DNA of 64,000 bases from Seison nebaliae (lineage: Eukaryota). The position numbers were made by a program, and so were the translations under genes. Positions 11,513 through 55,835 of the stretch are shown piece by piece; within the stretch, counting starts at the first letter, position 1; every line of letters begins with the position of its first letter. The stretch lies in assembly GCA_023231475.1 (NCBI GenBank), contig JALJEE010002679.1, positions 1 through 64,000 on the forward strand. The letters run 5' to 3'. The notes under the pieces are model-generated. The model was not told where the DNA came from. It saw only the letters and a program-made list of their open reading frames with translations, and searched no databases.

Positions 11513-13752
11513 ATGTTCCATGACTACGATACTACCACGAACAGCAATATGAATGAAGATAATATGATGAATACGTCGACAAATTTCCGTCACCAATATT
11601 TTAAGGTGATGAAATGTCTGGAAAGAATAAATCGGGAGATTGGTGATTTCAATATGGTAAATCGTCAAACAGTTCGTGAAGCGAATGATCGAAATTTCCT
11701 TCCACTCCTCAATCATGATATCAATTCGAATCATGATGGAATTGATACAAATGACGACAACATGCCATCCACTCTAGCATCCTCCCACTCCGGAACAGTA
11801 GCAGCTGGAGCTGCTTATTCTCAATCGAACATGTTTACTTTGAATCAACATCTCAAATCATTTCGAAAACATCTCGAAAATCTTTTAAGTATTTGTCAGT
11901 TAATTGCTTACAATCAAATCAATATTGATCTCATTCTACCGTCATTCTATAAAGAGATTGATAATCAAAACCAAAACAACAACAACAATACGATTAGTGA
12001 ACTCGATAGCGATATGATCGACATTGATGATGATGACGATGATGATTTGGCCAATAGTAACATTAATAATAATGCACGAATCAATCGAGATGATAGTAAT
12101 CCGTTGAAGAAAGTGACAATGATTAAGAAGAGTTTGAAGAAGAATCGACGAAATAGTACTGGGGTAGAAGGTCGAGATATGGGCAAGGCGATTGGTGAAC
12201 AGAGACCGGTTGTAGGACCACATCATCGTTCTCGATATTCAGTCCTCCAAAATGATATTCCCGTTCTTCAACTTCTGCGATTTACTTACAGTAATTTCTG
12301 GAAAGCGCCATCGCCACCATATTTTACGGTGGAGGATCTGGTCAAAGATGATACAGTCAAATCTAAAGGAAATAAAGTGGTGGTGGAGAAGACGGAAAAG
12401 AAGCAAGCTATCAAAACTCTTCTCCGCACATGGCCCAATTGGGATTTTGAGATATTTCAATTGGAACGTCTATCCGAGAATCATCCTCTCATTCATTTAG
12501 GTATGGAAATTCTGACGGAAATGAATGTCCTCGAATTATTGTCGTGTGATAATGGGACAATGCAGAGATGGTTACATCTCATCGAAATTAATTATTATGA
12601 ATCGAATCCATATCATAATTCAACGCACGCGGCCGATGTCCTCCAATGTTCCGCTTATTTTCTCAGGAATTATGTTCTGAGACAAATCCTCTCACAAACC
12701 GAACAAGCCGTCTGTTTATTAGCTTCAATTGCTCATGATGTCGATCATCCAGGTCTGACGAACCATTTCCAAATCCATTCAGAAACCCCATTGGCCATCA
12801 TGTACAACGATACGTTAGACAAATATTTTCCATTTTTCTCATTTTTATATCGTCATATCAGATCGTGTTTAGAAAGTCATCATGCAGCAGTCATGTTTGC
12901 ATTAACGTTGCAAAATGGTAATGTCAACATCTTCAAGAATTTGCCAAAGTTCATTTATAACGAAAGAATTTTTTAATAAGAATTTCTTATTATTCTTCTA
13001 GTACTTCTTATCGGAATGTAAGAAGAGGTGTAGTCAGTGCAATTCTTGCAACAGATATGGCGAATCATGCATTTTATTTGAGTGAATTCAAAAGGAATAT
13101 ATTAGGTGAAATTCATGCATCGGAACCGTTAAGATACAGAATAAAAGTTTTTTCAAGAATTTTCATATTAAATTCAAATATTCATCTTATTAAGCCATGG
13201 TTTGCCGACAAGAAAATTAAAGCTAAAATTAGAGAACCATCGAACATCCTAACAATTTGCCAATTACTAGTGAAATGTTCGGACATTTCCAATTTGTGTC
13301 GAGCGAAACGACATTGTCGACAATGGGCGGAAAGAATCGCAGAAGAATATTGTCGAGAAGTTTCATTTGTTTGAAATTAATTCGAATTCACTTTTTCCTT
13401 TAGTTCGAATTGTCAAAGAAGAATAATATCAAACCGTTTAGCGATAAATATAATAAGGAGACGCTTTTCCTTCCGTTGAATCAATTGGAATTCTTGACAA
13501 TGACCATTCGTGATCTTTACACGTCATTCCATCGTTAACTTTTATTTTCTTACAATTTAAATTTCATTAATTTTAATCTTTGATTTGAATTCAAAAGGAT
13601 TCATTGATATTCCGGAAATTCTCGATCATATCAATGCGAATTATACATTTTGGATTGGTGAATTCAAAACAGAGGAACGTCTACGCGAATTACAAGACTT
13701 CCGAAGCAAATGGGCATGTCATGATAATAATTTCATCAAATTCCAGAAGTGA
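11513..13752 (+). CDS. Class I cyclic-nucleotide phosphodiesterase, PDE8-like; introns 12814-12861, 12949-13001, 13147-13194, 13360-13403, 13534-13597
   Basis: NPYHNSTHAADV, HDVDHPG, YNDT|SCLESHH, ILATDM, KCSDISN.CR...WAERIAEEY and invariant Gln (NQLEF) match PDE8-type catalytic-domain motifs after removing 5 GT-AG introns. Stop TGA at 13750-13752. Further upstream exons cannot be excluded. Confidence 0.88.
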
Positions 13753-15809
13753 GAATGTTGTGTGTTTGAATGAATGGATGAATTGAAGGAGAATCGATTC
13801 GAGCACACATAGTATGAAGATTCTGTGAAAAAGAATTTTAAGGGAAATTTTTTCGATCTAAAATCATTCTTTAATGTAATCATATCTCTCTTCTATTCCT
13901 GTTACATAATTGCATTGTTATTATATTTATTTAAACCGGTCTAATTCTAAATTGATTGAATTATACTTCTCTTATTAAAGTTTTTAATGAAATTATCTCA
14001 AACCATTTTCTATATTTATTCTCTCTATTCTTGTCTCAAAAACGAATTTTTAGTATTTCCTCATCCACTTTCTCTTCCTCTCCCAACTTTTTTCTATTTT
14101 CTTATATAATTTCCTTCTATTTGTATCAGTCAATCTCTAATGAATAATTTCCATTTGGTCAACTTATCCAGGGAATCGATTCCATCAAACCGGTAACGTT
14201 CTCAATGAAGTACTTATCTCTTAGATTTTCGTGAATATTCTCCTCATCTCCCCTCCCCTCAAATAAAAGAATAGATTTTAATTAACTTTAATCTTCTTCT
14301 TAAATCATTCTTCTCATGACGATGATAATTGACAAGATCGACACTTTCATGATCGCCGCACACTAACCACCCTCATACGAGCTTTGGAAATCTTTTAATC
14401 TTACTCAATCTCTGACGATGTATCTATTCATCTTGGGACTAGAATGGAAGAATGTAAACATTTTCTTTGATTAACTCGATTTGAATTATGAGGTGACATA
14501 TCGACTTTTCGGATTAGATTCATCGCATTTCTTACTTTCCATCTAAATCATCCATTATTCCACTTATAATATGCCAGTAAGCAATTAACTTTCCATTGTT
14601 CAATGTCAAATCCGTTAGTCACCATTCGAATGACAACTGCTCTCGAGAATGACCGAACAAAATGTTATTGTATTATTTCCCTCATGCAATAAAACTATAA
14701 TCACCAATTTGTCTAACGTTCTCCCACGAAAATTTATTCTATTCATACATCAAATGGAGGAAATTATCATAAATTTGTTCGACTTATTTTCCTTGCCCAG
14801 TCTGAGGGAAAACATCTTGTCAGATCAATAAATATCATAATACGTAATGTTTCTTTCTTTATAGCTCTTATATCATAAAAATATTTAAATTGTATTAATG
14901 AGCAATAAATTTCACGCAATTCTAATTAGGTCATTTTCCTTGGTTTCTAACATGAAATATATTTATTAGTTAAAATCTTAAAAACATCATCTAATTTTCT
15001 ACTGTTAATTCTTCTTTCAATTCATTTAATTTTTTGGAATTTTGCGTTTCCTATTTTATTTGATCTTTCCTTTCTTATTTATCATTTTCATTCTCGGTTG
15101 GTATTTTCAAATAGTATATGGAGAATTGATTGGGTTGTGGGCTTTATTCTTTTTCCTTGGATTATTTCCTGGCAAAAAATAACGGAATAGAAATTTTTTT
15201 TGATTTAAATCTTCTCCAGCATTGAAATTTGACTAATCAATTTATCAATTTCTTTCAAATGTCTTGTAACTGTATTCGAATAAAAGAGGAATTCTTACAC
15301 TCACTTACAATTCTTCTTCCATTAAACTTGGGATGTTAATTAGTTTCCATGTCGTCAATCCGGATTCCTCCAATTTATTTCACAACTATCAGTTTCAATA
15401 GAATTTTTTAGGAAATAGCATTAGAACGACGATTTACCATTGGAAGAGGATGAAAGTCTCAAAGAAAAAGGGAAATTTGATTAATTTCATTCTTATTTCT
15501 ATGACACCTTTTCCTCCGGGGAGAAATACTCTTCGAATTTGAATCCATAAATTACAGAATAAAAGTCCAGTATAATATTCGATTATCCTCATTCTAAGTG
15601 GCTCCTTTTCACATAATGCTTCTTCAATACGTCCGTGGTTCACTAAAATTGGAGATTTTGATTATATACGTAATCAGAAAAATTAATATTAGACATCAAA
15701 TAAATGTTAGTAAGAAATCACAGTTAAATTCGGAAAAAGGTAGGATGGTTTTTTTTCATCAAATTTTTCTCAATATCAAACATTCATTTTCGATCTTATA
15801 ATTTGTGAA

Positions 15810-54538: not shown

Positions 54539-54548
54539 TGAATTTTCA

Positions 54549-55835
54549 TTAAACTAATCGCTTCTTCTTCTTTTTTATATGGTGGTTTCTCGTCCTCACC
54601 AACGGTATGACTTCCAGTTCTTCCTATTTTCATTCATATAAAAAAATCAAATATTTTGTAAACAAAAACAAAACTTTGTCTTCTTTTGAAGAATTACTAA
54701 TTTTAGCATCTGTTGTTGTTGTTGTTTTCGTTGTTGTTGTTGTTGTCCTTAATTGTTAATTTTAATGCATTGATATGAATTTAAGATCTTTTAAAGTTTT
54801 AACATTTCAGTAGCGAATCTTTTCTTTTCATTTTTTCTAGTTTCGTTTTTGGAAGAGACTAATTAAATTAGAAAATCATATTTCGAATCACATTAAACTG
54901 TTCAATGAGAAAGATTCATTCAAAATATCCGCCAAATCCCTTTCAGTATTCGAATTTTCCACACACATCGAATACTTTTCTAACGGCAGAATATCATTTT
55001 TCAAATTTTCTGAAAAAATTGTTTACAAGTTCATTTTCTTTCAAAAGTTTAATGAATAACTGGACGTTGTAGTGAATCCTTGAGAATATAAATCATTTAA
55101 TTCTTTGTCTTTTTTCACGATCCATCCTAATAAGTGACGTCGATCATCTTGCAGATAATTAATGAATTTCAACAATGGACTTAAAATTACTTTATGGTAC
55201 TCCTAATAAAAAGTAAATTATGATGATTAGTATGTTAATTTTGATAAATAAATCAATCAACTAAACTTCGATTGACACTTGGCGAACAGCCATATTCCAG
55301 TGAAGTGTTTGGGAGCTAATTTTAAAGTACATTTTGATCGTCGTTAGTTGGGAAGACGAATCATCTACAAATAAATTTTGAAGTTTCATTTTAATCATTC
55401 AAGAAACCTTCGATTAATTGTATTGTTGTGGTTTCTTTTTTTAATGAATCATTTATCCGTTTGGTGAAGGAATCGAACGAACTTTCAAGAAACGGAAATT
55501 CTACCTATTTTATTCCGTCCCCCATAAACTCAAGTTTTAGACGAATTCACATTTTAGTGAGAAGAACCTTTAAATTATTCATTACTTGTTCGCGTACAGC
55601 CACGTAACGATAGAGAACTTTTCCGTCATAAAAATACAATTTCATTTCTTTTTCATTCGAATCATTCAAGAACGAGAAATTGGACATTTTATTCACATTA
55701 TCCATTCGGTACCAGTTCATTCTTGTATTCTTCCAATCTACCAAACAATCTGACAGCTAATAATTAAATAGTCGGAAGTTGAAAAATATATTTTAAATTT
55801 CTTTTATTGATTTTCCGTCAACTGTTACGTATCAT
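54549..55835 (-). CDS. NHEJ1: XLF/Cernunnos-like non-homologous end-joining factor; introns 55750-55822, 55505-55567, 55365-55407, 55203-55266, 55010-55060, 54859-54898, 54748-54803, 54624-54674
   Basis: Spliced product has TLHWNM, then VILSPLL.FI.YLQ...R.L...I.KKDKELNDL.SQG....K.LK (cf. XLF LIRPLM..S.ALQ...REL...L.MKDLEIQDY.ESG.....RLKT), and a basic C-terminus KKKKKRLV* resembling the XLF Ku-binding motif. Start codon uncertain. Confidence 0.7.

What the first reader, a model, noticed from the sequence alone, without database searches (positions are those of the whole stretch)
12814..55822. Window-wide non-standard 5' splice-site consensus: about 90% of introns start GTT instead of GTRAG
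Seen: in 10 intron-containing genes on both strands, 55 of 61 frame-restoring introns begin GTT (PDE 5/5, GPCR 1/1, PSPH-like 3/3, TMEM170 1/1, ENKUR 3/4, ZnF 6/8, PIP5K 12/13, CP1 9/10, CP2 7/8, XLF 8/8). The rest are GTC x2, GTA x3 and GTG x1. Positions +4 to +6 are loose, but GTTAGT recurs (35547, 39915, 41014, 49520, 50437, 50955, 54201), which is GTRAGT with R changed to T. The last exon base is often A or C rather than G. Established: most animals strongly prefer a purine at +3, which pairs with U6 of the U1 snRNA 5' end (AUACUUACCUG). Inference: this lineage has re-tuned 5' splice-site recognition, for example through a U1 5' end such as AUACUAAC, an altered U6 ACAGAGA box, or changed U1C/LUC7/SNRNP27/PRP8 contacts. 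AT-richness alone would favour A and T about equally at +3, so it does not explain the bias.
Basis: partly seen in the sequence, partly recalled or inferred. Interest (0 to 1): 0.9.

Follow-up and report, generated by a model that had tools for sequence, protein, structure and literature searches.

The report
Animal whose introns start with GTT
In this stretch of the genome of the small marine animal Seison nebaliae about nine in ten predicted introns begin GTT instead of the GTA or GTG usual in animals, which likely means that its splicing machinery, probably the U1 RNA, has changed to read a different signal.

Summary
Confirmed. The window is from Seison nebaliae (Syndermata). 54 of 58 introns I placed in 8 genes start GTT. 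So do 39 of 44 donors in the public gene models and 22 of 25 junctions fixed by protein similarity with no model of +3. Background P(T after GT) is 0.38. Bdelloid-clade PIP5K loci with the same intron composition use GTT in 6 of 33 introns, other animals in 4 of 81. Six Seison PIP5K introns sit at positions shared with other animals, so old donors were converted. The strong donor is GTTAGT (8 of 58; GTAAGT and GTGAGT 0), and selection for -1G is not detectable. C at +3 is as rare as purines, so an adenosine probably faces +3. I favour a U1 5' end ACUAAC (0.5), but no RNA reads and no Seison snRNA could be examined. The closest precedent is Entamoeba (GUUUGU with a co-evolved U1). The scan noted GTT donors before on protist DNA (Bonamia, a foraminifer-like protist). 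My searches found no report for an animal.

The parts
12814..13597 (+). PDE8-like gene, 5 introns, donors 12814, 12949, 13147, 13360, 13534, all GTT
   Evidence: Hand model. Intron 1 is an exact 16-residue insertion against PDB PDE8A. Intron 3 is in frame and only moderately supported.
30765..31331 (+). PSPH-like (HAD) gene, 3 introns, donors 30765, 30938, 31287, all GTT
   Evidence: Hand model; weak Pfam Hydrolase match below the curated cut-off; the PSPH label is recalled
32164..32897 (-). Enkurin gene, 4 introns, donors 32897, 32681, 32209 (GTT) and 32401 (GTC)
   Evidence: Hand model; PDB enkurin aligns up to donor 32401. Donor 32681 has frame-compatible GTG/GTA competitors at 32690 and 32714 and is not resolved.
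34163..36543 (-). ZNF474-like gene (SNEBB_006182), 8 introns: 6 GTT, GTA at 36359, GTG at 36098; tandem GTA/GTT donors at 34206 and 34203
   Evidence: Exact mapping of P0293 and P0397; non-Seison homologues
39266..43543 (+). PIP5K type 1 gene (SNEBB_006183), 15 introns, all GTT; other isoforms add donors 40654 (GTT) and 40083 (GTG)
   Evidence: Exact mapping; junctions from non-Seison homologues
49520..51000 (+). Carboxypeptidase CP1, 10 introns, 9 GTT and GTC at 50572
   Evidence: Exact mapping of P0122; PDB alignment; paralogue cross-mapping
52996..54260 (+). Carboxypeptidase CP2, 7 introns, all GTT (intron 4: 53649 by paralogue alignment, 53679 in the public model; both GTT)
54837..55822 (-).
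   Evidence: Frame restoration only; no Pfam match for the one exon tested; lowest tier of evidence
39915..39920 (+). Example of the strong donor class GTTAGT (also 35547 on -, 41014, 42973, 49520, 50437, 50955, 54201)
   Evidence: 8 of 58 donors; +4A/+5G/+6T co-occur, permutation p 0.001; 3 of 5 introns over 150 nt against 5 of 53 shorter ones

Best explanation
About nine in ten predicted introns in this Seison nebaliae window start GTT, with GTTAGT as the strong form, likely because the U1 RNA that reads intron starts has an A instead of U at its sixth base (ACUAAC), which would pair with the T. Shown: these are ordinary GT-AG introns, median 50 nt, several at positions shared with other animals. 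+3 is T in 93%; +4 to +6 keep the usual AGT as a minority strong class; selection for G at the last exon base is not detectable; donors without +3T tend to have -1G. A three-base GUU core plus short intron length would define most introns; long introns would add the AGU pairing, and non-GTT donors would compensate on the exon side.
For: Counts. Junctions fixed without any +3 model: 22 GTT of 25 (PIP5K 8/8; ZNF474 2/4 and CP paralogue cross-mapping 11/12; PDE 1/1). Control with the same intron base composition (T 0.42 against 0.43): bdelloid-clade loci have +3 A 26, T 6, C 1 of 33; other animals T 4 of 81. Shared positions carry mostly GTA/GTG elsewhere. +3C is depleted against T (2 of 56, p 3e-5), as is A (1 of 55); this fits A-U pairing rather than pairing with the G of the U6 ACAGA box. 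Non-T donors have -1G in 4 of 6 against 12 of 54 (p 0.04), as expected if +3T contributes to one compensating helix. A crude pairing score with canonical U1 separates real from neighbouring unused GT sites in bdelloids (AUC 0.89) but poorly in Seison (0.63); an A6 U1 gives 0.80. Precedent: Entamoeba U1 ACAAAC with GUUUGU donors.
Against: No Seison U1 was seen: no genome is held and there is no snRNA in the window. Most lineages with atypical donors keep a canonical U1 (yeasts, Giardia, Trichomonas, Thecamonas, Micromonas), although those shifts are at +4. The AUC gain is partly circular, and an A5A6 U1 scores slightly higher (0.84), so the score cannot fix the U1 sequence. Positions +4 to +8 carry under 0.1 bit each, so U1 pairing may simply be weak. 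In a low-depth divergent copy of CP2, one donor keeps GTT (53813) and one reads GTA after -1G (54069). One intron position is GTT in 4 of 6 bdelloid-clade loci. No RNA junctions; the hand models could lean towards GTT.
Confidence: 0.5

Rival explanations
1. U1 and U6 are canonical, and a protein (U1C, LUC7, PRP8 or a U-rich RNA binder) or relaxed U1 dependence in very short introns imposes the +3U preference.
For: Donors carry little information beyond GTT, and -1G selection is not detectable (G-ending K/Q/E codons 3 of 16 at junctions against 162 of 655 elsewhere). Several lineages changed donors without changing U1. U1 pairing is dispensable in some contexts (passages).
Against: The T signal is confined to one position (93% at +3, 38% at +4, about 50% at +7 and +8), which a general U-rich binder would not give. 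With a canonical U1, GTA should be at least tolerated, yet it is 1 of 58.
Confidence: 0.3
2. The change is in U6: the base of the ACAGA box facing +3 has become A, or the unchanged G selects U by wobble pairing.
For: Commitment to the donor happens at the U1-to-U6 hand-over. The Entamoeba preprint notes that +3U could raise U6 pairing with an unchanged box. The Seison strong class and the scarcity of -1G among +5G donors (1 of 13 against 14 of 45) resemble the U6-type class.
Against: An unchanged G would pair best with C, and +3C is depleted. The ACAGA box was invariant in 240 fungal genomes.
Confidence: 0.13
3. The bias is compositional drift, gene-model bias or a burst of introner-like insertions.
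For: No RNA confirmation. The evidence behind the public models is not known to me. 27 of 51 slots have a frame-compatible GTA/GTG donor within 45 nt, 2 of them being the accepted donor itself (the 7 CP2 slots are excluded because of a frame slip in that call).
Against: A donor-neutral aligner with non-Seison proteins finds the same GTT junctions. Bdelloid-clade introns of equal composition use GTA. Positions are ancestral. Introns share no sequence beyond chance level, apart from one 17-nt match.
Confidence: 0.04

Closest known systems
Entamoeba GUUUGU(U) donors with co-evolved U1 (AACAAAC); Roy and Bowser, bioRxiv 10.1101/2022.06.08.495308 (passages and section 22 read)
   Same: +3U in about 90% or more of donors of major-class introns; the proposed U1 change at the base facing +3 is the same
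   Different: Entamoeba is intron-poor, its donor is near-invariant (88-90% GUUUGU) and +4 also changed. Seison is an intron-rich animal, only +3 changed, +4 to +6 are loose, the strong class is GTTAGT (GTTTGT 1 of 58), and its U1 is unseen.
+4 A-to-U donor switches linked to METTL16 and SNRNP27K in Saccharomycotina (Parker et al. 2023, PMC10581693; passages)
   Same: Lineage-wide change of one donor position on conserved introns
   Different: Position +4, not +3; U1 and U6 unchanged; +3 showed little variation in that survey
[quoted passage not shown]
   Same: A U6-type class with +4A+5G that avoids -1G is still visible
   Different: R at +3 is replaced by T in both classes, and the exon-side AG class is nearly erased
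GTT donors noted by this scan in protists: Bonamia (e1-9778931, e1-7132517) and shifted-register GTT donors (e1-7353857); AI notes, not checked here
   Same: GTT starts in short introns
   Different: Protists; GTTT or +1-shifted consensus. Seison has unshifted GTTAGT (AGT at +5 to +7 in only 2 of 58).

Membership tests
Major (U2-type) spliceosomal introns | GT...AG termini | tested here: met
   Every intron of the exactly mapped public models has a single or preferred GT-AG parse; 58 of 58 in my table, where GT/GC-AG was assumed for hand models
Major (U2-type) spliceosomal introns | Positions shared with spliceosomal introns of other animals | tested here: met
   PIP5K introns 1-5 and 9 share position and phase with other animal loci; intron 8 lies within 1-2 columns; intron 6 is seen only in Seison
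Major (U2-type) spliceosomal introns | Branch-point motif | tested here: inconclusive
   YTRAY in 34 of 58 and CTAA in 16 of 58 within -40..-6, no shuffle control
Major (U2-type) spliceosomal introns | Removal seen in RNA | not testable with these tools
   No RNA holder listed; the runs laid behave as DNA or lay nothing
Minor (U12-type) introns | GTATCCT-type donor (motif recalled) | tested here: not met
   0 of 58 donors (table)
Entamoeba-type transformed donor | +3U dominant | tested here: met
   54 of 58
Entamoeba-type transformed donor | +4U dominant, near-invariant GUUUGU | tested here: not met
   +4 T 22, A 24 of 58; GTTTGT 1 of 58
Entamoeba-type transformed donor | Intron-poor genome | tested here: not met
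   58 introns in 8 genes of this window; several other genes in the window are intronless
Entamoeba-type transformed donor | Compensatory U1 5' end | not testable with these tools
   No genome; no U1 in the window
METTL16-loss +4U donors | +4U preferred in the strong class | tested here: not met
   +4A in 10 of 13 donors with +5G; presence of METTL16 not tested
Shifted-register (+1) donors | Consensus displaced by one base (AGT at +5 to +7, G at +6) | tested here: not met
   2 of 58 and 5 of 58, against 8 of 58 unshifted AGT
Introner elements | Shared intron sequence at new positions | tested here: not met
   Longest-common-substring distribution close to shuffled; ancestral positions

The most novel reading that the evidence does not exclude
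Seison nebaliae is an intron-rich animal that rewrote its genome-wide donor code from GTRAG to GTT(AG) through a substitution in the otherwise invariant 5' end of U1 snRNA, and dropped the exon-side -1G requirement: the first animal case of snRNA and splice-site co-evolution across a whole intron set.
Probability: 0.45. Interest if true: 0.85.

Novelty: new variant of a known kind. Interest (0 to 1): 0.74.

Why it matters
The donor consensus and the U1 5' end are treated as fixed across animals, and the documented rewrites are in protists and fungi, mostly intron-poor ones. An animal that converted ancestral introns in place gives a natural test of whether U1, U6 or proteins set the +3 base, and of how a core recognition rule can change when many substrates depend on it. 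Syndermata offer a comparative series (bdelloids canonical here; monogononts and acanthocephalans untested) in which to time the switch. In practice, donor models trained on other animals would mis-score this genome.

Tried and rejected
No whole genome is held, so there is no genome-wide logo or snRNA search. RNA: no RNA holder listed; X1 and X2 behave as DNA, and X6 and X7 laid nothing. Rfam on the window: 0 hits at gathering score and 4 chance-level hits at E<=1, none spliceosomal. Pattern scans for U1-like genes: 0 in viral contigs (any base at 5 and 6) and 0 in metagenome contigs (non-U at 6); neither had a positive control, so they say nothing about Seison. The protein atlas was not available. 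The representatives search on the intronless acyl-CoA dehydrogenase added nothing. The PIP5K tree is the quick one (careful search unfinished); it holds 41 of the 80 loci, Seison is a long branch whose place is meaningless, and it was used only to define the Rotaria clade (SH-aLRT 100). Counts use 7 bdelloid-clade loci (duplicates L051, L052 and transcripts dropped) and 26 other animal-like loci, gap-free junctions only; these are orthologous introns, not independent events, so the Fisher p values overstate certainty. With all 48 bdelloid GT introns, T is 8. No monogonont or acanthocephalan locus was identified. Rejected: shifted register, introners, U12-type, composition. ENKUR intron 2, PIP5K introns 7 and 8 and ZNF474 intron 4 (2 of 5 references chose a GTAAGA at 35854) are not resolved by homology. 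Ten literature searches found no report of this bias in Seison or another animal. The library lacks most subscription journals, and no supplements were read, so a splice-site logo in a supplement or an unheld paper is not excluded.
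Full report
Identity. No genome is held for the window. Exons match at 100% the records SNEBB_006183 (PIP5K), SNEBB_006185 (carboxypeptidase) and SNEBB_006182 (ZNF474-like) of Seison nebaliae. 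Seison is an epizoic member of Syndermata with a genome of about 46 Mb and 32% GC (PMC8351084, passages). The window is 32% GC.

The observation. Exact mapping of the seven stored Seison proteins gives 44 distinct donors: 39 GTT, 2 GTG, 2 GTA, 1 GTC. My own table adds hand models for PDE8, a PSPH-like gene, enkurin and the XLF-like gene. It holds 58 introns: 54 GTT, 2 GTC, 1 GTA, 1 GTG, median length 50 nt. T follows GT in 38% of cases in the window and in intron interiors, so the excess is far beyond chance (p 2e-18; p 2e-12 even against 50%).

Independence from gene prediction. For PIP5K, an HMM built from 27 non-Seison homologues ranked the GTT junction first in all 10 slots tested, clearly so in 8. 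A spliced aligner that knows only GT/GC and AG recovered junctions 1-6, 8 and 9 with three of four foreign references and seven of them with the fourth; all are GTT. ZNF474 homologues agree in 5 of 5 references on four donors, two GTT and the GTA and GTG ones; they split on 35822. The two carboxypeptidases mapped onto each other recover 12 of 13 junctions, 11 GTT and 1 GTC. PDE intron 1 is an exact 16-residue insertion against PDE8A. Together 22 of 25.

Controls. A metagenome scan with a PIP5K alignment returned 80 loci, which I spliced with the same aligner. Seven non-duplicate genomic loci fall in a clade with Rotaria socialis (SH-aLRT 100, quick tree). Their introns are as short and as T-rich as Seison's (T 0.42 against 0.43), yet +3 is A in 26, T in 6 and C in 1 of 33 confident donors; 26 other animal-like loci give T in 4 of 81. 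Six Seison PIP5K introns share position and phase with these loci, which mostly read GTA or GTG there. The bias is therefore neither compositional nor due to new insertions, and it is not general to rotifers. These counts are of orthologous introns and are not independent. One position is GTT in 4 of 6 bdelloid loci.

Anatomy of the donor. Information is about 0.85 bit at +3 and under 0.1 bit at each of +4 to +8. GTTAGT occurs in 8 of 58 donors, GTAAGT and GTGAGT in none; +4A, +5G and +6T co-occur (permutation p 0.001) and are enriched in introns over 150 nt (3 of 5 against 5 of 53, p 0.016). The last exon base is A 33, G 15, C 5, T 5. G-ending Lys/Gln/Glu codons are no commoner at phase-0 junctions (3 of 16) than elsewhere (162 of 655), so selection for -1G is not detectable; bdelloid donors have -1G in 22 of 33. 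Donors without +3T have -1G in 4 of 6 cases against 12 of 54 (p 0.04). A low-depth divergent copy of CP2 in the DNA runs keeps GTT at 53813 while the rest of that intron is heavily changed, and reads GTA after -1G at 54069: two sites, one for and one against strict conservation.

Mechanism (inferred). In the canonical helix the U1 5' end pairs with CAG|GUAAGU (PMC9311317, passage), which puts U1 position 6 opposite +3. A strong class that is the canonical hexamer with only +3 changed, together with depletion of C as well as purines at +3, is what an adenosine opposite +3 would produce. U1 ACUAAC is the simplest source, and the same base changed in Entamoeba. A rough pairing score with canonical U1 separates real from unused GT sites well in bdelloids (AUC 0.89) and badly in Seison (0.63); A6 raises it to 0.80 and A5A6 to 0.84, so the score rejects a plain canonical reading but cannot pick the variant, and it is partly circular. 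Against this, most atypical-donor lineages keep canonical U1, and the weak donors are compatible with relaxed U1 dependence. I give U1 0.5, protein or relaxed U1 0.3, U6 0.13, artefact 0.04.

Comparison and novelty. It works like the Entamoeba case but fails membership on +4U, invariance and intron poverty. It is not the +4/METTL16 type, not the shifted-register class, not U12 and not an introner set. Passage searches of the Seison genome paper, a 2025 Syndermata paper, the Pomphorhynchus genome paper and two pan-eukaryote intron surveys showed no mention of it; PMC10599564 and PMC10125929 were also seen as passages only. Ten library searches found no animal case. The scan's earlier notes report GTT donors in protists and none for an animal. 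Verdict: a real and unusual feature, a new variant of a known kind, with an untested but directly testable mechanism.

Noticed in passing
window 49443-54538: The public model SNEBB_006185 (908 aa) fuses two complete carboxypeptidase units through a 1505-nt intron at 51263; CP1 has its own stop at 51275, so these may be two genes.
   Followed up: partly
window 53716-54297 and scattered over 40000-54400: Low-depth contigs (about one-fifth to one-ninth of the main depth) that differ at roughly 10-14% of exon sites, mostly third codon positions, occur in all DNA runs laid; probably a second lineage in the sequenced material. The species is reported to have two strains.
   Followed up: partly
window 34203-34206 (-): Tandem donors GTA GTT, both used in public isoforms of the ZNF474-like gene; a natural test of GTA against GTT by read counts.
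   Followed up: no
window 40026-40082 and 44221 onward (+): PIP5K isoforms with a 57-nt cassette exon ending in CAG|GTG and an alternative last exon after a 1248-nt intron.
   Followed up: no
58 introns of the table: Acceptor -3 is A in 10 of 58, and the polypyrimidine tract is weak. GTTAGT is also the reverse complement of the branch-point-like ACTAAC; not pursued.
   Followed up: no
window 3763-7338 (+) and 46274-48478 (+): Two long intronless ORFs (about 1190 and 730 aa) without Pfam match; the first has an acidic C-terminal tract, the second is Thr/Ser-rich with a predicted-looking hydrophobic segment.
   Followed up: no
window 20590-22570: Many short degenerate repeats of a GGAGAGGAACTCACC-like unit on both strands in a gene-free stretch, possibly a mobile-element remnant.
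   Followed up: no
L046, L047, L076: An unidentified long-branch clade with very short PIP5K introns (37-49 nt), a few starting GTT.
   Followed up: no
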